Shown: positions 14,741-48,594 of the stretch, one piece after another
Position numbering within the stretch: position 1 is the first letter of the stretch
Layout: each line of letters begins with the position of its first letter
DNA from: an uncultured SAR116 cluster alpha proteobacterium
Lineage (GTDB): Bacteria > Pseudomonadota > Alphaproteobacteria > Puniceispirillales > GCA-002684695
Assembly: GCA_902612965.1 (NCBI GenBank)
Contig: CACMFN010000004.1
Coordinates: 90,355-154,354 of the forward strand
Direction: 5' to 3'
Length of the DNA stretch: 64,000 nucleotides
The notes under the pieces: generated by a model
The model's database searches: none
The model's input: only the letters and a program-made list of their open reading frames with translations
What the model was told of the DNA's origin: nothing
Position numbers and translations under genes: made by a program

Positions 14741-15052
14741 TTAATGAATAGTTTTTTTAGGTTTTATATTATTAATTAATTTAATTTGATCTTTATCATC
14801 TTCTTGATTATTTGCATCCTCAGCCTTTGGATGATAGTACGCAAGTTGAGCGCCTAAGAAATTTGCCATTACAGTATTATGATCGTTACAAGTCTGATAG
14901 CTCATATCAAGACCAATATAAAAAAGGGTATATGCAATTAACCCTGGGTCATTTGTTTCTTTAAGTAATTTTTTAACAAGATCATTTATAGAGTCATAAG
15001 TTTCTGCAGCCTCTCTTTCCTCTATATCTGTCCTATTTAAAAGTTGCTTCAT
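14741..15052 (-). CDS. Hypothetical small protein; first gene of the minus-strand cassette
   Basis: The ORF track gives 14741..15109. I prefer the internal ATG at 15052 (MKQLLNRTDIEE...), which is preceded by GAGGTG. No motif recognised. Confidence 0.4.
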   Translation of the reverse strand: MKQLLNRTDIEEREAAETYDSINDLVKKLLKETNDPGLIAYTLFYIGLDMSYQTCNDHNTVMANFLGAQLAYYHPKAEDANNQEDDKDQIKLINNIKPKKTIH

Positions 15053-15191
15053 GTACACCTCAAATTCAATGATTCGGTGCATAGAAACATAAAATGAAAA
15101 AAAATACAATAAAAAAATTTGATTATTTTTTAATAATTTTTTAAACTACTGTTTTTATTATAAAAAAAATTAATAAATTTTAATTTTAATG

Positions 15192-15220
15192 TTGACTTTT
15201 TTAATTTACGGCATTAAATT
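15192..15220 (+). promoter_or_regulatory. Putative sigma70-type promoter of the regulator/ATPase operon
   Basis: TTGACT (15192-15197), 17 nt, then TAAATT (15215-15220), about 40 nt upstream of ATG 15263. It shares the ATGTTGAC context with the promoter at 686. Confidence 0.35.
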
Positions 15221-15262
15221 ACTTAAATCCTAGCATGTAAAATTTAAATTTAAGAAATAAAT

Positions 15263-16750
15263 ATGACTGAGCAAACAAACATAAAAGAAACTTCGTTAGA
15301 TAAATCAAATAGGACTGTACCAAAAGTATTGTTTTCATGGATTGGTACTCAAGATTATCTAGCCTTAGATACAAAAAGCCATGGGCCTATATTCTCGTCA
15401 ATAAAATATCATGAATTTGAAGAAGTGATTTTACTACATGATAAAAATATAAATAATGAGAAATATGTTTCCTGGCTAAAAATGAATTCATCTGTAAAAG
15501 TGAGTTCATTTAAAGTTGATTTGAAAGACCCAACAGACTTTGAGGTAATTTACAAAAGCTGTAAAAAAGTTATCTCCTCATATAATGAAAATAATAATGA
15601 TTTGAGTGATTTTTATTTTTTAGTTAGTGCTGGAACATGGGCAATGGCCAGTGTCTGGATTATTATTAGTCAGAAAGATTTTCCTGCGACATTGCTAAAG
15701 GCGGATAGAATTTCTGATTCTATTATGGAAGTTAAAATTCCATTTGAAGTTTCTGTTCACTGGCATGAAGAGAAAGCAAAGGAGAATGACGAAGTTATTA
15801 CAGCAATGCGTGATAATTTTATAAAGTTTTCACAAAATGGTTTCCTCTGGAAAAGTGAATCCATGCTCAGGCTTTTAAAAACATCAATGAAAATAGCATC
15901 CAGAGAACTATCTGTTTTTATTGAAGGTGAGCCAGGGACAGAAAAAGAGGTATTAGCTAGAATTTTACATGAGGGAAGTGCAAGATCAAAAAATAGTTTT
16001 ATTAAATTAGATTGTAATTTATCACCAGATAAAGAAATAGAAGAGTTTTTGATAGGTTTAAATAAAAATGAAAGTCATAGTCATGGGACTGTTTACATAA
16101 ATGCAATTGAAAAATTGTCTCTAAGAAACCAAGGTATTTTATATTCATTAATAAAAGATTTTGAAAAAAATTCAGGAATAAAAAACCCCAGAATATTAAC
16201 GTCATCAAATATAACAGTTGGCCAATTATTCCATTTAGAAAGTTTTGATAATAGTCTATTACATTCAATTTCAATGATGATTTTAAAAATTCCTGCATTA
16301 AGACATAGAAAAATAGATTTAAATGAATATCTTGATCAAAGTATTTCTTTCGCATGTAGCGAAATTTTTGGAGAAAAATCAGGTATCAAAAAAACATTAT
16401 CACCTGCTGCTAAGAATTTTTTATTAAACTATAATTGGAAAGGCAACATGGATGAGTTGTACAGTGCAATGACAAGAATGGTCATTTTATCTGAAAGCAA
16501 TCTTGTAAATGAAAGCGATGCCCTAAGTTCGGTGTTCATGAACCATGATCAGGATAAAGACCAAAAAAAGATTTTAAACCGCTCACTCGAAAATGGAATA
16601 AATTTAAATTCACTTTTTTCGGAAGTGGCGCAGCATTATATTCCACGTGCACTTGATATATCAAATGGGAACAAAAAGAAAGCAGCAGATATTTTGGGAC
16701 TGCAAAGTCAACAAACTCTTGCAAACTGGATTGATAGGTATTTAAAATAA
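15263..16750 (+). CDS. RtcR-like regulator: N-terminal CARF-like domain, degenerate sigma54-activator AAA+ domain, C-terminal Fis-type HTH
   Basis: The N-terminus (VLFSWIGTQDY...EEVILLHD...DPTDFEVIY...FLVSAGTWAMASVW) parallels the RtcR N-domain (FGFVGTxLDY...LLHD...NPWDFEEVY...TTGTH). The AAA+ remnants are GEPGTEKEVLARILH, GTVYINAIEKLS and NWKGNMDEL. The HTH is GNKKKAADILGLQSQQTLANWIDRY. Confidence 0.75.
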   Translation: MTEQTNIKETSLDKSNRTVPKVLFSWIGTQDYLALDTKSHGPIFSSIKYHEFEEVILLHDKNINNEKYVSWLKMNSSVKVSSFKVDLKDPTDFEVIYKSCKKVISSYNENNNDLSDFYFLVSAGTWAMASVWIIISQKDFPATLLKADRISDSIMEVKIPFEVSVHWHEEKAKENDEVITAMRDNFIKFSQNGFLWKSESMLRLLKTSMKIASRELSVFIEGEPGTEKEVLARILHEGSARSKNSFIKLDCNLSPDKEIEEFLIGLNKNESHSHGTVYINAIEKLSLRNQGILYSLIKDFEKNSGIKNPRILTSSNITVGQLFHLESFDNSLLHSISMMILKIPALRHRKIDLNEYLDQSISFACSEIFGEKSGIKKTLSPAAKNFLLNYNWKGNMDELYSAMTRMVILSESNLVNESDALSSVFMNHDQDKDQKKILNRSLENGINLNSLFSEVAQHYIPRALDISNGNKKKAADILGLQSQQTLANWIDRYLK

Positions 16751-16784
16751 TAAATGCACTATTTCACTATTCATGGAATAAAGG

Positions 16785-18788
16785 ATGTCTAATACTCAAG
16801 AAAAAGTGAATATACTAAAAGCAATAAAAAGTTTCACATTGTCAAACTTCAGGTCTTGGGAAGGTGAAAATAAATTTGAATTTAAAAATTTAAACCTTTT
16901 GTTTGGTAAAAATAGCTCAGGAAAATCATCTATAATTGATGCACTTTCACTATTATCTCAAAGTTCATATTTAAAATTCCATGGTAATAGAAATATAAAA
17001 ACAAATTTGTCTTTGGGAAATCTTGTTATAAATGGTCATTTAGCTGAACTTGGTGATTTGGAAGATCTTGTATTTAAAAAAAGAACTGATCCTAGAGAAG
17101 AGAGATGGCATTTAAAGAATTTTGAGAATTCTTCAATAGCATATTATAAGGATTTATTTTTTGAATTTAAATTAGATCCAAAACTTATTTTCAATCAATT
17201 AAAAAAAGATCCTATGTTAAAATTAGTAAAGTATGTTTATATCAAATATACATTTAGCGATATAACTGGAAATCTTGTTAGAAGATCCTTTTTTATTGAA
17301 GATTACAACAAAAAAAGAACATTGCTTTTAGACCTATGGAGACCTAAGAAAACTCAAGTATGGGCTTTTAATATATCTAATGATTATTCTTTGTGGAAAC
17401 AAATTTGGGATATAGAGACATCTGAAGGAATAGACTTTGTTCGATTTTTAAATAGGGAGGGAGATAAATATGCAGCTCTAGAAATGGACAATTTAAAGGA
17501 AAACAATCAAAAGCAAAACTTGCTTAGTATTAGAAGTCTAGAAGCTGAAACTGAAAGACAAGAGCTTTTATTAGAAAAAGAGAAATTACAATTAGAACTT
17601 TCAATTTTGAGACAGAGAGATCAAAAACTGAGTTTTCAATTTAATAAAACTGATGAAACTTTAAAGGAGATGCAATTAACAGGTAAGTCTAGTATTAAAT
17701 TCGCTAAAGAAAAAGAAATACTGCTAAATGAGATTTATAAAAACAAGAATGAAGAGGACAGTCTTTTAAAGCAAATAGATGATTTATTACGTGACATAAA
17801 AGATAGAGAAAATATTCTTGAATTGACCAATTATAGCACCAAGAATGAACCCGAAAAAGTCTTGTTTTTTGAACAAATTGAAAAATTTTCTTCCTATAAT
17901 TCCAACCATACAAAAAATAAAAATTTGTTAAGTGCCAATATCGAGAGTTTTGGTGAAACATGGGTACATGATTCAATTTCTAAAATGAGGCATTTTATAA
18001 GAAACAACTACAAAGATGATGCTTATTATCAACAAAGATTAGATCCATTCGATATGGCAGGAGAATGTGAAGAAGTACTTCTTAATTTTTTGCAATCAAT
18101 TGTTCGAATTGGACCGCATAGAAAAAGACCACAAAGAACAATGACTGCATCAAGGAGACATAATGTTGATAAGTTTAATATAGGTGTGGATGGTTCGGAT
18201 TTATACCCTTTGCTAAGTGATAAAAAAATATTATCAGGTTTAAATTCTTCTTTAGAAAAGGTTGAGATACCTTATACAATATCAACTAAGAGGCATAGAG
18301 GAGGGCGATGGTCTCTTATACTAAAAAATAAAACAGATGTCAGAGTAGATATAAATGATGTTGGTTATGGTATTAGCCAGGTGCTCCCTTTAATTTTACA
18401 ATCTTTTCAAAAAAATAAGTTAATTCTTATTGAGCAGCCAGAGTTACATTTACATCCAAAACTCCAAGCAAATCTTGCAGATATATTTATTAGTTCATCT
18501 AAAGATAATGGGAATTCATTTATCATTGAAACTCACTCTGAACATATTGTACTGAGACTTCAGAGGAGGTGTAGAGAACAAGTTAAAAGTGAAAATGTAG
18601 GCTTACATTCCAAGGATAGTTTAGCAGACATGATTAACATAAATGTTATTACCCAAGATAATCAGAGGCTAAATTCAAAAAATAAAAAAATGGAAATTTC
18701 CAAAAAAGGTGAATTTATGAATGTATGGCCAGAAGGTTTTTTTGAGGAAAGATTTATTGAGCTAGGCATTATTGACGAGGGTGACTAA
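16785..18788 (+). CDS. ABC/AAA_21-type ATPase with inserted coiled coil and DUF3696-like C-terminus
   Basis: Walker A FGKNSSGKSSIIDAL (aa 40-54). A coiled coil spans about aa 235-345 (LLSIRSLEAETERQELLLEKEKLQLELSILRQRDQK...). Further motifs are GYGISQVLPLIL, Walker B/D-loop LILIEQPELHLHPKLQ and H-loop IIETHSEHIVLRLQRR. The tail motif is WPEGFFEE. Confidence 0.8.
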   Translation: MSNTQEKVNILKAIKSFTLSNFRSWEGENKFEFKNLNLLFGKNSSGKSSIIDALSLLSQSSYLKFHGNRNIKTNLSLGNLVINGHLAELGDLEDLVFKKRTDPREERWHLKNFENSSIAYYKDLFFEFKLDPKLIFNQLKKDPMLKLVKYVYIKYTFSDITGNLVRRSFFIEDYNKKRTLLLDLWRPKKTQVWAFNISNDYSLWKQIWDIETSEGIDFVRFLNREGDKYAALEMDNLKENNQKQNLLSIRSLEAETERQELLLEKEKLQLELSILRQRDQKLSFQFNKTDETLKEMQLTGKSSIKFAKEKEILLNEIYKNKNEEDSLLKQIDDLLRDIKDRENILELTNYSTKNEPEKVLFFEQIEKFSSYNSNHTKNKNLLSANIESFGETWVHDSISKMRHFIRNNYKDDAYYQQRLDPFDMAGECEEVLLNFLQSIVRIGPHRKRPQRTMTASRRHNVDKFNIGVDGSDLYPLLSDKKILSGLNSSLEKVEIPYTISTKRHRGGRWSLILKNKTDVRVDINDVGYGISQVLPLILQSFQKNKLILIEQPELHLHPKLQANLADIFISSSKDNGNSFIIETHSEHIVLRLQRRCREQVKSENVGLHSKDSLADMININVITQDNQRLNSKNKKMEISKKGEFMNVWPEGFFEERFIELGIIDEGD

Positions 18789-18792
18789 ATAA

Positions 18793-19746
18793 ATGATCTA
18801 TAAAGATTATATCCTTGAAAACGAAGTATTATTTGATGAAAATTTTTTAGTAAAGCAATTTGGTTTATTGAATGGATATTTGATTAACGAATTGCCAAAC
18901 CAACAATTTTCCAAACTAGAGATTAGAAGATTTATGAACGAGAATAATTTCAATTCTCACCAAAGATATATGATACTAAATAAAATTAAAAAATTAATAG
19001 ATTTAAAAGCCTTTACAAGACATAAACAGCTTTCTTATATTTCAGAATTAGATTGGTCTTCTCAAGCAATTAAACAAGTAAAAGATGGTAATTCTTTCGG
19101 TTTTATTACAACTACTAATAAACATCATGGAGACTCAATTAAGTATAAAAAATTCCAAGAAAATATAATTGCTACTCCATGGTGTAGAATAAACATTGAA
19201 CCTGAAAAATATCTTAAAATCCTTGAACCTGCATTATCTCAAGCTGTTAAGATAAAATTTATTGATAGATTTATTCTCAATTTGGAAGGACAGTATGATG
19301 ATTTTCGTCATCAATGTTTGGAATTTATTGGGATGGTTTGTGCCTACTATTATACTAGAAATAATTTTGATGTAGAGCTAGATATATTTTCAAATTATAA
19401 GAATAACGTTTTTGGAAAAATGAAAACAATTGATGTTTCGAAATTAAAAAATTATATAAAGTCTGATAAAAGTTATGACATTTTGTCAAAATTTAATGTA
19501 AACTTTTACCTTCTTAAGGAAGAAGATCCTCTTATTGAAGATTTGCATGACAGGTTTTTTTGGACACCTGATACTCTTATAAATGTTGGTATAGGTTTTA
19601 CCCAAGACAGACGCCGTAGTACTAGTATTACACTAATGTCAAATAAACATCTCCATGAGGAAATTGATGATTCATATTCAGGGCTAGATAATGACAGATT
19701 TAAGGTTATGGATAGTTTCTCGATTAATGATTTAAAAAATATTTAA
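18793..19746 (+). CDS. Uncharacterised protein with C-terminal MIT_C-like (phospholipase-D-fold) domain (tentative)
   Basis: VKIKFIDRFILNLEGQYDDFRHQCLEFIGMV...VNFYLLKEEDPLIEDLHDRFFWTPDTLINVGIGF resembles the MITD1 C-terminal pattern (IRIQDPYI...[20 protein letters not shown]). The start lies 4 nt after the ATPase stop. This resemblance was judged by eye. Confidence 0.4.
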   Translation: MIYKDYILENEVLFDENFLVKQFGLLNGYLINELPNQQFSKLEIRRFMNENNFNSHQRYMILNKIKKLIDLKAFTRHKQLSYISELDWSSQAIKQVKDGNSFGFITTTNKHHGDSIKYKKFQENIIATPWCRINIEPEKYLKILEPALSQAVKIKFIDRFILNLEGQYDDFRHQCLEFIGMVCAYYYTRNNFDVELDIFSNYKNNVFGKMKTIDVSKLKNYIKSDKSYDILSKFNVNFYLLKEEDPLIEDLHDRFFWTPDTLINVGIGFTQDRRRSTSITLMSNKHLHEEIDDSYSGLDNDRFKVMDSFSINDLKNI

Positions 19747-19812
19747 AATCTTGTCACATATTTAGTTTTCGCCAGTTCCTTTATTAGTAATTTTAAAAGG
19801 AGCTAAATTATA

Positions 19813-23490: not shown

Positions 23491-25782
23491 CTATACCAAC
23501 CTTTTCTCTGATATGTAATACCCAGTATTATTTCTTCTGATTAAATAATCTGAATTGTTTGCAATACCTCTCATTCTAGCATTGAACCTTTTTTGCGGTG
23601 GAATAAAATGTTTCGGATAATTATCCTCGACCCATGAACAACAATCACTATACGCATTTTTAAAACTGTAATTGTAATTCTTTTTTATATTTTCTTCAAA
23701 ATCTCCCCTGTCAAACCATTCAAGTATTACATCAGCCTCTTTAAACCATTCTTCAGTCGCATCAGAAACTACAGAGGGTATATCATATCCACCATTTTGA
23801 ATCACCTGCTCTAAACCCCTAACAGACAATGCAAGAAAAACATTACTTTCTTCATTTAGGATCTTATCAGCAATCATCGGTATCTGTTCATTGCTTGGGA
23901 TACTTCTTTTGAAGGGTATAACATTCATCCTTCTCTCTATGCCAGCATCTACACCATCAATGAAATTGGGGAGTTCATTAGCAGCAAACAGATGAATAGC
24001 TGTCGGGTTAAAGTTAAAAACATGTTTATAAATAATTTTAGCTGTAACTGTTTCACCTGTTATTACAGCTTTCATCTTATCTGATGTGATGGCCTGCGAT
24101 CCTGATAATTCGTCTGTTATATTTATGCTTTTCCCTGAGAGATCAGCAAGATATTGTTCTTTATTCAGGTTACCAGGCGGAATTGATGTAGAAGCTGTCT
24201 TAGGTAGGAAAAGTTTCAGAAGTTTTAAAAATTGAGACTTTCCATTCATGGCTGTAGGTCCATATAAAACAAAAGCTTTCGGGGAAGATAATCGGGTTGA
24301 ATAACTAGAACAGGCAACACCCGATATTTGAAACAAAAGTTTGATAAGCCTTTCCTTGAAAAGTTCATCTTTAAAACAGCCATCCAGAAATATTTTCAAA
24401 AAGCCATCTATACATAGGTTCTGATCAGGTTGCCATGTAGATTGAATTGTATGTCTTTGCCGATGAAGATGGTGATGTTCAAGCAAAGAGATAGAAGGCT
24501 TGTCTGTAACTTTAATGAAACCAGAAAGACAATTAATTCCAACTAAGCTCTCACTGAAGAAACCGGGTCTGGCACATATTGAAGATAGCTCATTTATAAC
24601 TCCGTCTATAAAATTTTTATTTGATATAATAAATTTCTTTTTTTGAAATTGAAGACCATCCAGATCCTGGACCCATTTTCTGCATATATGATCTTCACAT
24701 TTTTCCCAATGTGTTTTGTTATATGTCCAGAAAAAACCTTCATCAAACACAAGCGGAGGTTTATTGAATTCTTTTCGGGCTTTTATATATTTGGCAATTT
24801 CGGTATGAGATCCTCTCGTTATTATAAAATCAGATTGACCGTTCCATCCAGCATCTCTTGCTTTTATGAAAATCGTTTCAATTGATATTCTATCAGGTTT
24901 GAAAGTATTCCATTTCGAAAGAACATCCTCTTTCCCCTTAAAATTATAAGGAACGCTTCCATCAGATCGTTTTTCTGACCATGACATGAAAATTTCAAAA
25001 GCTTTATCACTTTTTGTCGATTTCAAGGCCATCCCTACATAAATCCATTGATTATAGTCTTGAGGATCAAGAAATTTTAATGGATCAGCAATATTTTCAA
25101 GAATTTTATCATTCGTGTCATTACATGTTGGCTTATAGGTTTTATTTTCAAATATATTTTTTCGGGAAACAGGCTTTCCAAAAAATGAGAAGATCTTTTT
25201 TTCACTAACTTGTCTAAGGTAATCGACCTGTTTCATATTTATGGGAGGCAGATCTTCAATATTCATATCCATAATATTATCATCTGCCCATATATAATTT
25301 TTTCCTGTCTTGGGATGGATACCCGAGATTACAGCCTGATTGCCTTTTGAGAGAAACTCGACTTGGTTTTTTTCATCACCGTCCATATAGGTTTCTGTTG
25401 ATGACTTGCTAAATGTTTTACCCTCTACTCTGAAAAACAATGCTGCTTTTGGGCTTTGCCCAATTCTCATAGGTGCATGCCCAAAATTATCTTTTATAAA
25501 TTTTATTACTTCAAAACTGAGATCTTTATTCATGATATCAATGTCAATTACACAAACTCTGCCAAGAAGAATTCCAATGCCATGCTGTCTGTGATCTTTG
25601 ATAAGTTTTTGGTATTGATCTTGATCTATTTTATCGAATTTAGTCCATCCTTTAACAGCTGGTCTTTTCTGCTTCTCAAGAATAGGTATGGGATAAAAGC
25701 CGTTATCCAGAAGTCTTTCTGCATATTCATGAAAATATTGGGGATTAGTCATTGCTCTTCTCCATATATTGAAACCATTCAT
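23491..25782 (-). CDS. Bifunctional primase-polymerase / D5-P4-type replicative helicase
   Basis: N-terminal PrimPol signature LLDNGFYPIPILEKQKRPAVKGW...HGIGILLGRVCVIDIDI. Central Walker A LYGPTAMNGKSQFLKLL. Overall architecture of phage/plasmid primases of the P4 family. Confidence 0.88.
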   Translation of the reverse strand: MNGFNIWRRAMTNPQYFHEYAERLLDNGFYPIPILEKQKRPAVKGWTKFDKIDQDQYQKLIKDHRQHGIGILLGRVCVIDIDIMNKDLSFEVIKFIKDNFGHAPMRIGQSPKAALFFRVEGKTFSKSSTETYMDGDEKNQVEFLSKGNQAVISGIHPKTGKNYIWADDNIMDMNIEDLPPINMKQVDYLRQVSEKKIFSFFGKPVSRKNIFENKTYKPTCNDTNDKILENIADPLKFLDPQDYNQWIYVGMALKSTKSDKAFEIFMSWSEKRSDGSVPYNFKGKEDVLSKWNTFKPDRISIETIFIKARDAGWNGQSDFIITRGSHTEIAKYIKARKEFNKPPLVFDEGFFWTYNKTHWEKCEDHICRKWVQDLDGLQFQKKKFIISNKNFIDGVINELSSICARPGFFSESLVGINCLSGFIKVTDKPSISLLEHHHLHRQRHTIQSTWQPDQNLCIDGFLKIFLDGCFKDELFKERLIKLLFQISGVACSSYSTRLSSPKAFVLYGPTAMNGKSQFLKLLKLFLPKTASTSIPPGNLNKEQYLADLSGKSINITDELSGSQAITSDKMKAVITGETVTAKIIYKHVFNFNPTAIHLFAANELPNFIDGVDAGIERRMNVIPFKRSIPSNEQIPMIADKILNEESNVFLALSVRGLEQVIQNGGYDIPSVVSDATEEWFKEADVILEWFDRGDFEENIKKNYNYSFKNAYSDCCSWVEDNYPKHFIPPQKRFNARMRGIANNSDYLIRRNNTGYYISEKRLV

Positions 25783-26274: not shown

Positions 26275-26350
26275 TGGTGCCCAGGGGCGGATTTGAACCA
26301 CCGACACGAGGATTTTCAGTCCACTGCTCTACCGACTGAGCTACCTGGGC
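26275..26350 (-). tRNA. tRNA-Phe (anticodon GAA), CCA encoded
   Basis: The reverse complement GCCCAGGTAGCTCAGTCGGTAGAGCAGTGGACTGAAAATCCTCGTGTCGGTGGTTCAAATCCGCCCCTGGGCACCA folds as a cloverleaf. It is close to E. coli tRNA-Phe. There is one U-U mismatch in the anticodon stem. Confidence 0.95.
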
Positions 26351-44933: not shown

Positions 44934-46690
44934 GCAGCCTCTAATTCATCAATAAGAGATGAAATTGTATTTAACCCAATATTCCAAAATTCTGGATCTG
45001 ATGCATCAAGCCCGAAAGGAGCAAGAGCCTCTCTATGATGTTTTTTCCCACCAGATTTTAAAAGATTTATATAACTTTCAGTAAAATTGCTTTGACCAGA
45101 GAGTCTGACTTGCCAGAGACTATTAACCAAACAGTCTCCAAAAGCGTATGCATAAACATAAAAAGGCGAATGAACAAAATGTGGTATATATGACCATAAT
45201 GGTTTATAACTATCATCTAAATTTATTGCATCACCAAGGGCTTGTGATTGGGTTTCCATCCAGATTTCGCTTATTTCGTCAGGTGTAAGTTCATTTGATT
45301 TTCTTTTATTATGAAAAGATGTTTCAAAATTATGAAATGCAATTTGCCTGACAACAGTATTGAGCATATCTTCAACCTTTTCTGCTATCATGGAATTCTT
45401 TTCTTGCTTTGAATCAGCTTTTGAAAGAAGTTTCTGAAATACCAACATCTCGCCAAAAACTGATGCAGTTTCTGCTAATGTGAGAGGAGTATCTGCTAGC
45501 AAGTATCCATTTTTTGATGCTAAAACTTGATGGACACCATGGCCAAGTTCATGAGCAAGTGTCATAACATCTCTAGATTTTCCATTATAATTCATTAAAA
45601 TATATGGATGTACATCTGGAACACATGGATGAGAGTATGCACCTGAGTCTTTACCATTTCTAATTTCAGCATCAATCCAATTATTTTCAAAGAACTTACT
45701 AGCTATTTTAGCAATTTCAGGCGATAGTTCATTGAAGCTCGTTAAAACGATTTCTTGTGCTTCACTCCAACTCCACTTTTGATTGGGTTTGTTTGGAAGA
45801 GGGGCATTTCGATCCCACCAATTCAATTTATCCATATTAAACCACTTGGATTTTAGTTTATAATATCTATGGCTGAGATCTTTAAATCTACCCGTTACTG
45901 CATCAGCTAATGCTTTTACAACTTCATCTTCAACATCATTATCTAAGTTTCTTGAAGATATTGGGTTAATAAAACCTCTTTTATTATCTTCAATATATTT
46001 ATCTCTGGAAATGGTGTTAAGAATTAAAGATCTAGTTCTCTTGTTTTGATCAAGAACTTTTGAAAATTCTAATCCTGCATCTTTTCTTAAATCTGGGTCG
46101 GGATCACTTAAAAGATTAAGTATCTCTGTTTCACTTAGGGTATCACCTTTAATTTGAAATCTTAAGTCTGAAGAACTTTCATCAAATAATCTTACCCACG
46201 CACCTCTACCACTGGGTCCCTTCTCAGCAATAAATTGTTCAAGATCATTCGATAATTGGAAGGGTTTCCTTTGAAAAATTTTTCTCAACCATGGTTTCCA
46301 TAAAGAAAGATGGTTATCACTCAAATATTTTTTTGAAGTATTGTCATCAAGGTTCATTATTTCAAGTTCAAAAAAAACCAATTTTGAAAATATAATAGAT
46401 CCTAATTCCCTAATTTCTTGGTATTTTTTACCAAAGTCCGGTTTGTCCGTATTAATGGAAAATGTTAATGAAACGTAGCTATAAAGTTTCCCAAGTTTTT
46501 GATTTATTGTTTCATAATCTCTAATCGCTTCATTCAAATTTTCACTGGAAAGAGTGGCAATTTTATTTTGATATTTATTTATGAAACTTTCAGTGAGTTC
46601 TTCAATTTCAATTTTATCTGAACTTAATTTACTATCATTAATAGACGCATATAAATCATTAAGATCCCATTGAGGCAAATCTCCAAGCAT
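44930..46690 (-). CDS. pepF: Oligoendopeptidase F-like M3 metallopeptidase
   Basis: Zinc motif HELGHGVH, 586 aa. Confidence 0.88.
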   Translation of the reverse strand: MLGDLPQWDLNDLYASINDSKLSSDKIEIEELTESFINKYQNKIATLSSENLNEAIRDYETINQKLGKLYSYVSLTFSINTDKPDFGKKYQEIRELGSIIFSKLVFFELEIMNLDDNTSKKYLSDNHLSLWKPWLRKIFQRKPFQLSNDLEQFIAEKGPSGRGAWVRLFDESSSDLRFQIKGDTLSETEILNLLSDPDPDLRKDAGLEFSKVLDQNKRTRSLILNTISRDKYIEDNKRGFINPISSRNLDNDVEDEVVKALADAVTGRFKDLSHRYYKLKSKWFNMDKLNWWDRNAPLPNKPNQKWSWSEAQEIVLTSFNELSPEIAKIASKFFENNWIDAEIRNGKDSGAYSHPCVPDVHPYILMNYNGKSRDVMTLAHELGHGVHQVLASKNGYLLADTPLTLAETASVFGEMLVFQKLLSKADSKQEKNSMIAEKVEDMLNTVVRQIAFHNFETSFHNKRKSNELTPDEISEIWMETQSQALGDAINLDDSYKPLWSYIPHFVHSPFYVYAYAFGDCLVNSLWQVRLSGQSNFTESYINLLKSGGKKHHREALAPFGLDASDPEFWNIGLNTISSLIDELEAA

Positions 46691-46839: not shown

Positions 46840-48594
46840 ATGGGAAATATTTCTGCAAAATCATTGCCAGGTATTTTTTTTGAACAAGCAAATTCACTTA
46901 AAGACAAACCATTATTTTGGTCAAAAAAAGAGGGTTTTTGGGAAGGAGTTACTTGGGGTGATGCAGCCGTACAAGTTAAAAAGTTAGCTAGTGTTTTACA
47001 ATCATATGGAGTTAAAAAAGGTGATAGGGTTTTAATAGCTTCAGAAAATAGACCTGAGTGGGCAATTTCAGATTTGGCTATTATGTCTTTAGGAGCAATT
47101 GTTGTTCCTGCCTATACATCAAATACAGAAGAAGATAATAATTATTTACTAACACATTCTCAAGCTAAATTAGCAATAACATCTGGTGGAAACGTGGCAT
47201 CTAGATTATGTCTAGCCGCGGATAGTAATAAATTTATCCAAAATATTATACTAATTGACGCTGAACCAAGAAATTTTACTGTTAAAGGTTGTAAAATACT
47301 TTCCTGGAATGAGGAAATCAAGAAGGTTGACATTGATAGTAAATTTGAGAAATCAATAGAAAAATTATCAGATGAAGATGTTTGCTGTTTTATTTATACA
47401 TCTGGCACAGGGGGTAGACCTAAGGGTGTGATGCTCACACATAAGTCAATATTTTCAAATATTTTAGCGTGTAGTGATGTAATTAAAGATGTTAAAATTA
47501 AAGAAAAAGTTTTTCTTTCACTTCTACCTTTGTCGCATGCTTACGAACATACTTGTGGTTTTCATTGGCCAATATTTTTAGGAGCTGAAATTTATTACAG
47601 TGAATCTACCGAAGCAGTTGCTCAAAACCTGCAAGATGTTAAACCAACTCTTATGATTGCAGTGCCAAGGCTTTATGAAGTGCTTTATTCAAGAATTGTA
47701 AATGGCATAAAAGCCAAAGGTGGAATTTCAGAATACCTGTTTATGACTGCGGTTAAACTTGGAAGAAAAAAATTAGAAAACCAGAATCTACTTCCTCATG
47801 AGTGGTTGCTTGACAAATTAGTTGAAAGACTGGTGAGACAAAAAGTTAAATTGAGGCTTGGTGGCCGATTAAGATATTTCGTATCTGGAGGAGCCGCATT
47901 GAATTATGAGGTTGGTAGTTTTTTTCTTGGCCTTGGAGTTGGTATTTTGCAAGGTTATGGGCAAACTGAAGCTTCTCCTCTCATTTCTGTAAATAGACCT
48001 AATTTAATTAAAATTGACACAGTTGGCCCAGCAGTTTTAGGAGTAGAAACTAAAGTTGATGAATTTGGCGAGTTGCTTGTTAGGGGTAATTTAGTAATGA
48101 AAGGCTACTGGAATGATGAAGTGGCTACAAAACAAGCAATTAAAAAAGGTTGGTTACACACTGGAGATATTGTTGAGTTTGATAAAGATAATTATATTAA
48201 AATTACAGGTAGAAAAAAGGAAATTATTGTAAACTCTGGAGGTGATAATATTGCACCAACGAGAGTTGAAGGTATTTTAGCAATTGAAAATGAGATTGAG
48301 CAAGTGATGGTATATGGAGATGGGCACCCATGGTTATCTGCTGTAATTGTTCCATCTGATGAAATTATTAAATCGCTAAATAATAACAAGAAAAAAATTA
48401 AAGATAAAATTTCTGAGGCTATAGATCACGCTAATTTAGGACTGTCTCAAATCGAGAAAATTAGAAAATTTATAATAGCTGATGAACCTTTTACTGTCGA
48501 TAATCTTCAAATGACACCAACTTTGAAAGTTAGAAGGCATGTTGTAACGGGTATTTATCAAGATAGAATATTAGAGCTTTATCCAAAAAAATAA
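46840..48594 (+). CDS. Long-chain acyl-CoA synthetase (AMP-forming)
   Basis: AMP-binding motif IYTSGTGGRPKGV, plus GYGQTE and TGDIVEFD. Confidence 0.9.
   Translation: MGNISAKSLPGIFFEQANSLKDKPLFWSKKEGFWEGVTWGDAAVQVKKLASVLQSYGVKKGDRVLIASENRPEWAISDLAIMSLGAIVVPAYTSNTEEDNNYLLTHSQAKLAITSGGNVASRLCLAADSNKFIQNIILIDAEPRNFTVKGCKILSWNEEIKKVDIDSKFEKSIEKLSDEDVCCFIYTSGTGGRPKGVMLTHKSIFSNILACSDVIKDVKIKEKVFLSLLPLSHAYEHTCGFHWPIFLGAEIYYSESTEAVAQNLQDVKPTLMIAVPRLYEVLYSRIVNGIKAKGGISEYLFMTAVKLGRKKLENQNLLPHEWLLDKLVERLVRQKVKLRLGGRLRYFVSGGAALNYEVGSFFLGLGVGILQGYGQTEASPLISVNRPNLIKIDTVGPAVLGVETKVDEFGELLVRGNLVMKGYWNDEVATKQAIKKGWLHTGDIVEFDKDNYIKITGRKKEIIVNSGGDNIAPTRVEGILAIENEIEQVMVYGDGHPWLSAVIVPSDEIIKSLNNNKKKIKDKISEAIDHANLGLSQIEKIRKFIIADEPFTVDNLQMTPTLKVRRHVVTGIYQDRILELYPKK

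What the first reader, a model, noticed from the sequence alone, without database searches (positions are those of the whole stretch)
15263..16750. Enhancer-binding-protein scaffold lacking the sigma54-contact loop and with an inactivated Walker B
The central domain aligns to the sigma54-activator AAA+ module, but three canonical elements are altered.
- Where the canonical ESELFGHxxGAFTGA would be, the protein reads EIEEFLIGLNKNESHSH. There is no GAFTGA.
- Walker A is GEPGTEKE instead of GESGTGKE.
- Walker B GTLFLDEI is GTVYINAI (D to N, E to A).

The protein therefore probably cannot hydrolyse ATP or remodel sigma54 holoenzyme. The RtcR-like N-domain and the Fis HTH are nevertheless retained. 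By eye there is no TGGCAC-N5-TTGC element upstream of the ATPase gene. This looks like a bEBP repurposed as a ligand-gated sigma54-independent regulator or scaffold.
Basis: seen in the sequence. Interest (0 to 1): 0.6.

Follow-up and report, generated by a model that had tools for sequence, protein, structure and literature searches.

The report
CARF regulator with dead sigma-54 module
This gene encodes a ligand-sensing DNA-binding regulator at the head of an anti-phage gene cassette; it descends from sigma-54 activators but has lost every part needed to burn ATP or touch sigma-54, so it shows how a portable defence switch was rewired to work without sigma-54.

Summary
ORF 15263-16750 (495 aa) has a CARF sensor domain, a bEBP-type AAA+ domain and a Fis-type HTH. 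The GAFTGA loop is deleted. Walker A reads GEPGTEKE and Walker B INAI. Both arginine fingers, the sensor-II arginine and the glutamate-switch Asn are also gone.

This is a lineage trait. The protein matches PADLOC RtcR_PspF2 (CARF_AAA_HTH) over its full length. It sits in a well-supported clade of 23 representatives nested inside canonical GAFTGA-bearing CARF activators. In that clade the CARF and HTH positions stay conserved while the ATPase positions are relaxed.

A consensus -24/-12 promoter follows the regulator's stop codon in 65 of 73 canonical loci, in 0 of 13 loci of GAFTGA-less regulators, and not in the window. Two isolate genomes carrying GAFTGA-less members have no rpoN; this genome does.

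The gene is co-oriented with, and 34 nt from, a conserved ABC-type ATPase plus ~315-aa partner module that canonical relatives drive from sigma-54 promoters.

Best reading: a CARF-gated, sigma-54-independent "atypical EBP" regulating its own defence operon. Repressor or activator, operator and ligand are unresolved. It is a new variant of known kinds.

The parts
15263..16750 (+). Gene for the 495-aa CARF / dead AAA+ / HTH regulator (PADLOC RtcR_PspF2--CARF_AAA_HTH)
   Evidence: ORF. PADLOC PDLC01995 matches at E=2.5e-88 over residues 21-493. Pfam and NCBIfam bEBP hits all fall far below the equivalog cut-offs. The full-length AF2 model has pLDDT 85.8, and its best folds are NtrX, NtrC1, VpsR and FleQ.
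15323..15742 (+). CARF sensor domain (residues 21-160)
   Evidence: The AF2 domain model has pLDDT 91.7. The leading Foldseek PDB hits are CARF proteins (Csm6 6tug, TM 0.76, probability 1.0). PADLOC Csx1/Csm6 CARF models hit residues 21-136. Motif positions W26, G28, D31, G41-P42, P90, S122/G124/T125, M128, W132 and P160-F161 are conserved equally in canonical and GAFTGA-less relatives.
15851..16300 (+). bEBP-type AAA+ core (residues 197-346), catalytically degenerate
   Evidence: Pfam Sigma54_activ_2 and Sigma54_activat. Alignment to NtrC1. Structural positions are kept (G222, G225, T226, A232, H236, C251, Q290, R310, P344, R349) while catalytic positions are lost.
15926..15949 (+). Walker A variant GEPGTEKE (second Gly replaced by Glu; Lys kept)
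   Evidence: Glu at this position occurs in 67% of 27 GAFTGA-less representatives, against Gly in 100% of 60 canonical ones.
16034..16084 (+). Site of the deleted L1/GAFTGA loop (EIEEFLIGLNKNESHSH)
   Evidence: A 13-residue gap against NtrC1's GAFTGA segment. The same deletion is seen in the clade.
16085..16108 (+). Walker B variant GTVYINAI (D to N, E to A)
   Evidence: D and E are invariant in canonical relatives and variable in the clade (DE, EE, ED, EN, QS, HS, NA).
16244..16270 (+). Arginine-finger segment FDNSLLHSI in place of FREDLYYRL (both Arg lost)
   Evidence: R329 and R335 are 100% conserved in canonical relatives; in the clade R329 is kept in 37% and position 335 has no prevalent residue (commonest Ala, 19%).
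16436..16459 (+). Lid motif WKGNMDEL in place of WPGNVREL (sensor-II Arg replaced by Asp)
16604..16744 (+). C-terminal Fis-type helix-turn-helix (residues 448-494)
   Evidence: HTH_8 E=0.003, below threshold. The AF2 model shows three helices. Y459, A463, G469-N470, A474-A475, G479, Q484-T485 and N488-W489 are conserved in both clades.
15110..15262 (.). Divergent intergenic region. It holds a candidate sigma-70-type promoter (TTGACT 15192-15197, 17 nt, TAAATT 15215-20) overlapped by the dyad TAATTTA-N6-TAAATTA (15202-15221). This is a weak candidate operator only.
   Evidence: The dyad is not statistically distinguishable from AT-rich background (P=0.30). In G+C-richer relatives a conserved CTTGC-N6-GYAAG dyad lies 21-37 nt (about 65 nt in L015) before the regulator's ATG.
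16751..16784 (+). 34-nt gap between the regulator and the ATPase gene, with no -24/-12 element. In canonical relatives a sigma-54 promoter sits in this position.
14741..15052 (-). Conserved small ORF (about 103 aa from the internal Met; the longest ORF runs to 15109), divergent from the regulator. It is the first gene of the minus-strand DUF2130/Mza-like cassette.
   Evidence: Homologues lie directly upstream and divergent from the regulator in L011, L012, L015, L016, L017 and L018 (GAFTGA-less) and in L029 (canonical). Small divergent ORFs occupy the same position in L099 and L101, but their homology was not tested. There is no Pfam, NCBIfam or PADLOC hit.
16785..18788 (+). ABC/OLD-type ATPase (AAA_15/AAA_21; best PADLOC hits PDC-M55A, NsnB, HEC-03B). 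It is the first cargo gene.
   Evidence: Homologues lie downstream of the regulator in about 30 related loci of both clades. They directly abut or overlap the regulator gene in L100 and L103.
18793..19746 (+). 317-aa partner of the ATPase (uncharacterised family)
   Evidence: An HMM built from 31 proteins that follow ATPase homologues hits it at E=2.8e-19 over its full length. No Pfam family matches any of 16 members.

Best explanation
The gene encodes a CARF-gated 'atypical enhancer-binding protein'. It is a transcription regulator descended from sigma-54-dependent CARF-AAA+-HTH activators of defence operons.

**What is shown**
- The AAA+ module has become a pseudo-ATPase scaffold.
- The sigma-54 contact loop is deleted.
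- The CARF sensor and the HTH are kept under constraint.
- The sigma-54 promoter that canonical relatives carry right after the regulator's stop codon is absent here.

**What is inferred**
- The protein oligomerises through the dead AAA+ domain.
- It binds a dyad operator in the divergent promoter region in front of its own gene.
- It acts on sigma-70-type RNA polymerase.
- It thereby controls one transcript that carries the regulator, the ABC-type ATPase and its ~315-aa partner, and perhaps the following ARPP-1 / ECF-sigma-like genes. It may also control the divergent small-ORF/DUF2130/Mza-like cassette.
- Binding of a nucleotide-derived ligand to the CARF domain switches this control during infection or RNA damage. 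By analogy with RtcR the ligand could be an RNA end with a 2',3'-cyclic phosphate; it could also be a cyclic oligonucleotide.

The most likely mode is ligand-relieved autorepression, as with WYL-type defence regulators (about 40%). Class-II-type activation, as with VpsR, is the alternative (about 25%).
For: **Architecture and dead motifs**
-.

**Clade-wide pattern**
- CARF and HTH positions are conserved while the Walker A Gly, Walker B DE, the R-fingers, sensor II and the glutamate-switch Asn are relaxed (27 GAFTGA-less versus 60 canonical representatives).
- 23 GAFTGA-less representatives including the target form one clade (SH-aLRT 98) nested among canonical ones.

**Promoter co-variation**
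- TGGCAC-N5-TTGCW (2 or fewer mismatches, GG and GC exact) lies within -10 to +300 nt of the stop codon in 65 of 73 canonical loci, mostly 1-10 nt after the stop.
- It lies there in 0 of 13 GAFTGA-less loci. Fisher p=2.3e-10; background is 0.028 per 310 nt.

**rpoN**
- rpoN is absent from the Defluviimonas aestuarii and Roseovarius sp. genomes that carry GAFTGA-less members. It is present in 4 of 4 canonical hosts tested.

**Operon structure in the clade**
- The regulator-to-cargo gap is 34 nt here, 2 nt in L100, an ATGCCTAG start/stop overlap in L103, and 13 nt in L017.

**Same cargo as canonical relatives**
- Type I R-M and the ATPase-plus-partner pair.

**Operator-like sites**
- Positionally conserved dyads CTTGC-N6-GYAAG lie 21-37 nt (about 65 nt in L015) before the regulator's ATG in six G+C-richer loci, and in four of them a second site lies near the divergent small ORF.

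**Precedent**
- Atypical EBPs that lack GAFTGA and work with sigma-70 are known: TyrR, HupR, HsfA, PhhR, NtrX, VpsR (PMC6158489).
- NtrX and VpsR are among the best structural matches.
Against: - There is no experimental or transcript evidence.
- In the window the operator cannot be identified. The 153-nt intergenic region is so A+T-rich that 21 inverted repeats occur, and the candidate 7-N6-7 dyad is expected by chance in 30% of simulated sequences.
- Sigma-70-like promoter matches in the region are at chance level: 60 found against 54 expected (one search is not relevant here).
- The conserved dyads in relatives have not been shown to bind this protein rather than another factor.
- The loci compared are phylogenetically related, so the Fisher p-value overstates independence.
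- The host does have rpoN and two canonical GAFTGA bEBPs, so sigma-54 independence here is inferred, not forced.
- Conservation of Glu in Walker A hints at a function of the pocket that this model does not explain.
- Tight or translational coupling to the ATPase gene would also fit a physical complex.
Confidence: 0.65

Rival explanations
1. Sensor subunit of a three-protein defence complex. The dead AAA+ ring is mainly a protein scaffold that docks the co-expressed ABC-type ATPase and its ~315-aa partner. CARF ligand binding would gate the effector post-translationally. DNA binding would be secondary (autoregulation or tethering).
For: - Regulator, ATPase and partner form a recurrent trio.
- The ATPase gene starts 2 nt after, or overlaps, the regulator's stop in L100 and L103, and 34 nt after it here.
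- The ATPase-plus-partner pair accompanies these regulators in about 25 loci.
- RtcR's CARF domain is known to bind partner proteins RtcA and RtcB (PMC9650030, abstract).
- The conserved Glu in Walker A suggests selection on the pocket.
Against: - In canonical relatives the same ATPase pair is separated from the regulator by a sigma-54 promoter. That is a purely transcriptional relationship.
- In several clade members the first cargo is Type I R-M, Zorya-like or VWA/kinase genes, not the ATPase.
- The HTH recognition positions are as conserved as in canonical activators.
Confidence: 0.15
2. It still activates sigma-54 RNA polymerase through a non-canonical contact, or as a hetero-oligomer with an intact bEBP, using a promoter too divergent to recognise.
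For: - The host has rpoN and canonical GAFTGA bEBPs.
- The AAA+ fold and lid are intact.
Against: - The L1 loop is deleted and L2 shortened. Walker B, both R-fingers and sensor II are lost.
- No -24/-12 match with 3 or fewer mismatches occurs from 14961 to 17825.
- 0 of 13 clade loci have the promoter against 65 of 73 canonical loci.
- Clade members occur in genomes without rpoN.
Confidence: 0.03
3. Decaying relic: a regulator gene that lost its function after the island moved, and is on its way to becoming a pseudogene.
For: - Many catalytic residues are lost at once.
- The closest relative's contig (L094) is rearranged or chimeric.
- The gene is accessory: 1 of 7 same-genus genomes and 0 of 33 same-order genomes carry it.
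Against: - The frame is intact, and the fold is predicted confidently (pLDDT 85.8).
- The same state is shared by a clade of at least 23 representatives at 50% identity, found in Alphaproteobacteria and metagenomes.
- CARF, AAA+ structural core and HTH positions are conserved, and synteny is conserved.
Confidence: 0.04

Closest known systems
Defence-associated RtcR-like CARF-AAA+-HTH regulators (PADLOC models RtcR_PspF1 and RtcR_PspF2; described next to R-M systems by Makarova et al. 2014, PMC4012209, and at the head of CoCoNuT/defence 'superoperons' by Bell et al. 2024, PMC11090510)
   Same: - The three-domain architecture is the same, with a full-length match to PDLC01995.
- The position at the 5' end of a co-directional defence cassette is the same.
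- The cargo types are the same: Type I R-M and the ABC-type ATPase plus ~315-aa partner.
- The CARF and HTH signature residues are the same.
   Different: - Both papers predict these proteins to be sigma-54-dependent activators. I confirmed that wiring for canonical members: the promoter follows the stop codon in 65 of 73 loci.
- The target's clade has lost GAFTGA, the ATPase residues and the promoter, and it occurs in rpoN-less hosts.
- I found no paper noting this. A search for GAFTGA with CARF returned nothing relevant. The 2020 CARF classification paper could not be read.
Atypical enhancer-binding proteins: E. coli TyrR, P. putida PhhR, R. capsulatus HupR, M. xanthus HsfA, Brucella NtrX, V. 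cholerae VpsR (listed in PMC6158489)
   Same: - They have a bEBP-type AAA+ domain without a functional GAFTGA, often with non-consensus Walker motifs, and a C-terminal HTH. They act with sigma-70 RNA polymerase as activators or repressors.
- VpsR also has Walker B D to N.
- NtrX and VpsR are among the top structural matches.
- This genome also has NtrC-like and NtrX-like GAFTGA-less response regulators.
   Different: - Their sensor domains are REC or ACT/PAS, not CARF.
- They regulate metabolism, biofilm or stress genes, not mobile defence cassettes.
- Most keep nucleotide binding. Here Walker A, Walker B, the R-fingers and sensor II are all altered.
- Whether this protein works with sigma-70 is inferred, not tested.
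RtcR (E. coli and Salmonella), the CARF-bEBP activator of the rtcBA RNA-repair operon
   Same: - CARF-AAA+-HTH order.
- Weak Pfam RtcR hit.
- NCBIfam RNA_repair_RtcR aligns over residues 53-486.
   Different: - The score is 99.5 bits against a cut-off of 650.
- No rtcB is found in the genome.
- There is no GAFTGA, no ATPase residues and no sigma-54 promoter.
- The cargo is defence genes.
CARF- or WYL-domain repressors and activators of defence loci (Csa3; BrxR and CapW-type WYL regulators; the WYL examples are from my own knowledge)
   Same: - A ligand-sensing domain is fused to an HTH.
- The gene sits at the head of the defence operon it is thought to control.
- Csa3 is among the CARF fold matches.
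   Different: - Those proteins are small two-domain dimers without an AAA+ module.
- Here a 240-residue dead AAA+ domain lies between the sensor and the HTH. It presumably dictates higher-order oligomerisation.

Membership tests
Canonical sigma-54-dependent bEBP | AAA+ domain homologous to Sigma54_activat (PF00158) | tested here: met
   PF00158 E=1.6e-13, but only profile positions 4-117. PF14532 E=1.2e-15. The fold matches NtrC1, PspF and ZraR.
Canonical sigma-54-dependent bEBP | GAFTGA (L1) loop that contacts sigma-54 | tested here: not met
   A 13-residue deletion at that site in the alignment to NtrC1. No GAFTGA-like motif occurs anywhere.
Canonical sigma-54-dependent bEBP | Walker A GxxxxGK, Walker B hhhhDE, arginine fingers and sensor-II Arg for ATP hydrolysis | tested here: not met
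   GEPGTEKE; YINAI; FDNSLLHS in place of FREDLYYR; GNMDEL in place of GNVREL.
Canonical sigma-54-dependent bEBP | Cognate -24/-12 (TGGCAC-N5-TTGC) promoter at the regulated genes | tested here: not met
   No match with 3 or fewer mismatches from 14961 to 17825 on either strand. No match with 2 or fewer mismatches on the + strand across the cassette.
Canonical sigma-54-dependent bEBP | Host encodes sigma-54 (rpoN) | tested here: met
   Sigma54_DBD hit at E=8.7e-62 in the own genome. Absent in two isolate hosts of clade members.
RtcR (NCBIfam NF038308, RNA repair activator) | Score above the equivalog cut-off | tested here: not met
   99.5 bits against a cut-off of 650.
RtcR (NCBIfam NF038308, RNA repair activator) | Linked to rtcB/rtcA | tested here: not met
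   The neighbours are an ATPase and defence-type genes. No RtcB hit in the 83%-complete genome.
PADLOC RtcR_PspF2--CARF_AAA_HTH | Full-length match to the family profile | tested here: met
   E=2.5e-88; residues 21-493 against profile positions 2-478 of 481.
PADLOC RtcR_PspF2--CARF_AAA_HTH | Association with defence genes | tested here: met
   It lies between an Mza-like cassette and an ATPase/partner/ARPP-1 cassette. Relatives sit next to Type I R-M, Zorya-like and kinase/VWA genes.
CARF superfamily | Rossmann-like CARF fold with conserved strand-1 and strand-4 motifs | tested here: met
   The leading Foldseek hits are CARF proteins. The motifs WIGxxD and SxGTxxM are conserved.
CARF superfamily | Binds a cyclic oligonucleotide or RNA-end ligand | not testable with these tools
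   No Csm1-type Cas10 or SMODS cyclase was found in the genome. The ligand is unknown.
Atypical EBPs (TyrR, NtrX, VpsR class) | bEBP-type AAA+ domain lacking a functional GAFTGA, plus a C-terminal HTH | tested here: met
Atypical EBPs (TyrR, NtrX, VpsR class) | Regulates sigma-70-dependent promoters | not testable with these tools
   The only evidence is indirect: absence of a sigma-54 promoter, rpoN-less hosts of relatives, and operon-like spacing.

The most novel reading that the evidence does not exclude
The dead AAA+ domain may be more than a leftover spacer. The clade-conserved Glu in the P-loop (GTEK) could occupy the phosphate site and lock the ring in a nucleotide-independent assembly state. 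CARF ligand binding would then be the only switch. The regulator, the tightly or translationally coupled ABC-type ATPase and the ~315-aa partner would form one self-contained sensor-effector system. The regulator would both autoregulate the operon and physically gate the effector. Loss of sigma-54 dependence would be the adaptation that let this portable defence switch spread into sigma-54-less marine Alphaproteobacteria.
Probability: 0.15. Interest if true: 0.7.

Novelty: new variant of a known kind. Interest (0 to 1): 0.5.

Why it matters
Defence islands are often headed by RtcR-like CARF regulators. The literature treats these as sigma-54 activators.

This locus and its clade show a second, sigma-54-independent version of the same switch. 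The protein motifs and the promoter are lost together, and members occur in hosts that have no rpoN.

- **An experimental contrast.** It gives a clean natural pair, canonical and dead-ATPase forms driving the same cargo. That pair can be used to ask how a bEBP scaffold regulates sigma-70 transcription. It can also be used to ask what the CARF domain senses outside type III CRISPR.
- **Annotation.** 'Sigma-54-dependent regulator' labels on these genes, and sigma-54 regulon predictions built on them, are wrong for this clade.
- **Adjacent lead.** It flags a widespread, uncharacterised ATPase-plus-partner module as the conserved cargo.

Tried and rejected
- **Displaced motifs.** I looked for a GAFTGA or DE Walker B elsewhere in the protein using a pairwise HMMER alignment to solved bEBPs and family alignments. 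None was found.
- **Sigma-54 promoter.** I scanned the window with up to 3 mismatches. There is nothing between 14961 and 17825. The 3-mismatch hit at 19752 lacks both the GG and the GC.
- **Operator in the window.** I tried inverted-repeat and pattern searches. The 20-bp dyad at 15202-15221 is unique in the window but not significant for such A+T-rich DNA. I do not claim it.
- **Closest relative's contig (L094) for phylogenetic footprinting.** It is a rearranged or chimeric assembly with a 514-nt intergenic region and an N-terminally extended regulator, so it is uninformative.
- **Sequence searches of the CARF domain against PDB.** Single sequence and profile both found nothing. Only the fold search identified it.
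- **The Rhodobacterales-type dyad in canonical loci.** It is not evident in their upstream regions.
- **Makarova et al. 2020 (CARF/SAVED classification).** It is not held, so I could not check whether the degenerate ATPase was noted there.
- **Small divergent ORF.** A word-based homologue search gave only two close relatives and no names.
- **First related-loci run.** The 28-sequence alignment was too divergent to give a search pattern. A 10-sequence alignment worked.
- **Rejected readings.**
  - It is not an RtcR orthologue: the score is far below cut-off and there is no rtcB.
  - It is not a pseudogene: the clade conserves it.
  - It is not a cOA-responsive type III CRISPR accessory: no Csm1-type Cas10 was found, although the genome is only 83% complete.
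Full report
**1. The observation**

ORF 15263-16750 (+) encodes 495 residues.

HMMER alignments to solved Aquifex NtrC1 structures give the following:
- GEPGTEKE aligns with GESGVGKE.
- A 13-residue gap falls exactly where NtrC1 has the GAFTGA loop.
- YINAI aligns with FLDEI.
- The pre-sensor-I (L2) region is shortened by six residues.

- The arginine-finger segment FREDLYYR is FDNSLLHS.
- The lid motif GNVREL (sensor II) is GNMDEL.
- The Asn of the VNC motif is Asp.

No -24/-12 match with three or fewer mismatches lies between 14961 and 17825.

**2. What the protein is**

- Pfam finds the bEBP AAA+ core and lid. It gives only sub-threshold RtcR and HTH_8 signals.
- NCBIfam bEBP equivalogs all hit far below their cut-offs. 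RtcR scores 99.5 bits against 650.
- The PADLOC model RtcR_PspF2--CARF_AAA_HTH matches end to end at E=2.5e-88.
- An AlphaFold2 model of the whole protein (pLDDT 85.8) is most similar to NtrX, NtrC1, VpsR and FleQ.
- A separate model of residues 20-171 (pLDDT 91.7) has CARF proteins as its leading PDB matches: Csm6, Can2, Cdn1, Cad1, Card1, Csa3 and ring nucleases.

The architecture is therefore CARF, linker helix, AAA+ with lid, then HTH.

**3. It is a lineage trait, not a broken gene**

An exhaustive profile-free search found 198 representatives (50% identity clusters) at E<1e-30.

- Most full-length relatives are canonical: GESGTGKE, GAFTGA, DE, FREDLxxR, GNVREL.
- About 30 of the best 155 lack a GAFTGA-type loop.
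- In a maximum-likelihood tree, 23 GAFTGA-less representatives including the target form one clade (SH-aLRT 98) nested within canonical CARF-bEBPs.
- Four further GAFTGA-less sequences with an intact GTGK P-loop sit elsewhere in the tree.

I compared 27 GAFTGA-less with 60 canonical representatives column by column:
- CARF signature positions (W26, G28, D31, G41-P42, P90, S122/G124/T125, M128, W132, P160-F161) are equally conserved in both sets.
- HTH positions (Y459, A463, G469-N470, A474-A475, G479, Q484-T485, N488-W489) are equally conserved in both sets.
- So are structural AAA+ positions (G222, G225, T226, Q290, R310, P344, R349, W392, N395, E398).
- Positions that are 98-100% invariant in canonical proteins are relaxed in the clade. 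These are Walker A G227 and K228, N250, Walker B D280 and E281, R295, R329, D331, R335 and R397.
- Glu replaces the second Walker A glycine in 67% of the clade.

This is the signature of a pseudo-enzyme scaffold kept between a working sensor and a working DNA-binding domain.

**4. Promoter co-variation**

A scan of one genome per species returned 80 loci. Six encode GAFTGA-less proteins: SAR116, Defluviimonas, Roseovarius, an unclassified uncultured-bacterium bin and alphaproteobacterial MAGs. The other 74 are canonical and come from Pseudomonas, Marinomonas, Marinobacter, Vicinamibacterales, Magnetococcales, Planctomycetota and others.

| Set | Loci with TGGCAC-N5-TTGCW within -10 to +300 nt of the stop codon |
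|---|---|
| Canonical | 65 of 73 |
| GAFTGA-less, including the window and four metagenomic loci from deeper branches | 0 of 13 |

- The match criterion was two or fewer mismatches with GG and GC exact. In canonical loci the promoter usually starts 1-10 nt after the regulator's stop codon, on the same strand.
- Background density is 0.028 per 310 nt. Fisher p=2.3e-10, inflated by relatedness.

Loss of the sigma-54 contact loop and loss of the sigma-54 promoter therefore go together.

**5. rpoN**

- The window's genome (a 2.1-Mb, 83%-complete MAG of the same genus as a SAR116 single-cell genome) has rpoN and two canonical GAFTGA bEBPs.
- It also has NtrC-like and NtrX-like response regulators that themselves lack GAFTGA.
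- Of six genomes with GAFTGA-less CARF regulators, three lack rpoN. These include the Defluviimonas aestuarii and Roseovarius sp. isolates. All four canonical hosts tested have it.
- In those isolates the regulator cannot be sigma-54-dependent.

**6. Context and cargo**

The gene lies in an accessory island. It is found in 1 of 7 same-genus genomes and 0 of 33 same-order genomes. The island runs roughly from a Dcm/Vsr unit and an Mza-like cassette to a Prim-Pol/DUF5906 gene beside tRNA-Phe.

*Downstream, on the same strand*
- A 667-aa AAA_15/AAA_21 ATPase follows after a 34-nt gap. Its best PADLOC hits are PDC-M55A, NsnB and HEC-03B.
- Next come a 317-aa protein, ARPP-1, an ECF-sigma-like protein and two more ORFs.
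- Homologues of the ATPase lie downstream of the regulator in about 30 related loci of both clades.
- An HMM of the ~315-aa proteins that follow them hits the 317-aa protein at E=2.8e-19. This partner family has no Pfam model.

*Spacing and cargo in relatives*
- In clade members the ATPase gene starts 2 nt after the regulator's stop (L100) or overlaps it (ATGCCTAG, L103).
- In Rhodobacterales-type loci a Type I R-M operon is inserted between the regulator and the ATPase pair, with gaps of 13-79 nt.
- Other cargos are Zorya-like genes (L011) and a VWA/CARF-Card1/PP2C/kinase set (L104).
- Canonical relatives carry the same cargos behind their sigma-54 promoter.

*Upstream and divergent*
- A small ORF (about 103 aa) has homologues in the same position in six clade loci and one canonical locus.

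**7. DNA sites**

- In six G+C-richer clade loci a dyad CTTGC-N6-GYAAG lies 21-37 nt (about 65 nt in L015) before the regulator's ATG. It overlaps a plausible -35/spacer.
- In four of these loci a second site, CTTAC-N8-GCAAG, lies about 195 nt upstream near the small ORF.
- This fits autoregulation of a divergent promoter pair. Binding by this protein is inferred.
- In the window a TTGACT-17-TAAATT promoter-like site (15192-15220) is overlapped by TAATTTA-N6-TAAATTA (15202-15221). Such dyads arise by chance in 30% of simulated A+T-rich sequences, so it is only a candidate.

**8. Mechanism**

*Shown*
- The domain architecture.
- Complete loss of the sigma-54-contact and hydrolysis determinants.
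- Constraint on the sensor and the HTH.
- Absence of the sigma-54 promoter.
- Operon-like linkage to the ATPase pair.

*Inferred*
- The protein oligomerises through the dead AAA+ domain.
- It binds an operator at its own promoter and controls a sigma-70-type transcript that includes the cargo.
- It is switched by a CARF ligand.
- Operator position in relatives favours ligand-relieved autorepression over activation.
- The ligand is unknown. The genome shows no Csm1-type Cas10, SMODS cyclase or RtcB (in an incomplete genome). RNA or nucleotide products of infection or damage are therefore more plausible than type III cOA.

*Rivals*
- Scaffold or sensor subunit of a complex with the ATPase pair: 0.15.
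- Cryptic sigma-54 dependence: 0.03.
- Relic: 0.04.

**9. Relation to what is known**

- The family is catalogued. PADLOC holds it, and Makarova et al. 2014 (PMC4012209) noted R-M-linked RtcR-like CARF-NtrC-HTH proteins and predicted sigma-54 dependence.
- Bell et al. 2024 (PMC11090510) described RtcR homologues heading defence superoperons.
- Atypical EBPs without GAFTGA that use sigma-70 are a known class: TyrR, HupR, HsfA, PhhR, NtrX, VpsR (PMC6158489).
- I could not find a description of a CARF-sensing atypical EBP clade in which the catalytic apparatus and the sigma-54 promoter are lost together and whose hosts can lack rpoN.
- I therefore rate it a new variant of known kinds, of moderate interest.

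**10. Limits**

- There are no transcript or biochemical data.
- The operator and the sign of regulation are unresolved for this locus.
- Loci in the promoter comparison are not phylogenetically independent.
- The ORF calls in related loci were made with a crude longest-ORF rule.
- Earlier AI notes of this scan report sigma-54 promoters at the stop codon of canonical relatives. I reproduced that independently. The notes are not counted as evidence.

Noticed in passing
window 14741-15052 (-); L011 9473-9823, L012 9566-9940, L015 162-521, L016 9473-9886, L017 9470-9748, L018 9467-9841, L029 9516-9887 (all -): A small protein of about 100 aa is encoded divergently and directly upstream of the regulator in the window and seven related loci. 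It has a conserved core (DP..IAFAL..VA.DMGL) and a C-terminal ...TVH/TIH. It has no family in Pfam, NCBIfam or PADLOC. The arrangement recalls pspA/pspF, so it might be a partner or anti-regulator.
   Followed up: partly
window 16785-19746 (+); e.g. L022 11549-14196 and 14302-17699, L059 11521-15122 and 15156-18139: The ABC-type ATPase (variable N-terminal and coiled-coil part, conserved C-terminal ~150 aa) and a ~315-aa partner form a recurrent two-gene module behind CARF regulators of both clades. The partner's invariant positions are W88, A92, D158, H252, R254 and G268, and it has no Pfam model. Several Vicinamibacterales loci carry two tandem copies of the pair.
   Followed up: partly
L019-L093 (canonical relatives), immediately 3' of the regulator gene: In 65 of 73 canonical CARF-bEBP loci a consensus sigma-54 promoter begins within a few nucleotides of the regulator's stop codon. 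Often 30 nt or less remain before the next ORF, which implies very short or absent leaders and an enhancer inside or upstream of the regulator gene.
   Followed up: yes
L094 (contig of the 62%-identical relative P0002): This contig carries the same genes (small ORF 74% identical, DUF2130, regulator, ATPase) in pieces of opposite orientation, and regulator residues 98-126 appear twice. It is either a chimeric assembly or a real inversion. The regulator there also has an N-terminal extension of roughly 120 aa.
   Followed up: partly
own genome C7: 60716-61201 and 64310-64747 (L004, L005): Two response regulators next to sensor kinases (NtrC-like, 470 aa, and NtrX-like, 461 aa) also lack GAFTGA. 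This small genome therefore has three atypical EBPs and only two canonical GAFTGA bEBPs, a divergent pair on C21.
   Followed up: partly
window ~3700-26350: The region looks like one mobile defence island. It holds an HTH-Dcm methylase and Vsr, an AIPR/MzaD/MzaC/MzaB/DUF2130 cassette, the regulator cassette, and a Prim-Pol/PriCT_2/DUF5906 primase (23491-25782) close to tRNA-Phe (26275-26350). I did not find an integrase.
   Followed up: partly
window 46854-46869 (-): TGGCAATGATTTTGCA is a one-mismatch sigma-54 promoter-like site. It lies about 165 nt upstream of the minus-strand gene that ends its 5' side at 46690. It may be a genuine sigma-54 promoter of this genome.
   Followed up: no
L011, L012, L017, L018, just 5' of the regulator ATG: The putative -10 (CTATTT) lies only 8-13 nt before the ATG and no Shine-Dalgarno sequence is visible. 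These regulators may be translated from leaderless mRNAs.
   Followed up: no
proteins P0067, P0150, P0183, P0193: Four other CARF-AAA-HTH representatives lack GAFTGA but keep a GTGK/GTGR P-loop. They branch apart from the main dead-ATPase clade, which suggests at least one further independent loss of sigma-54 contact.
   Followed up: no
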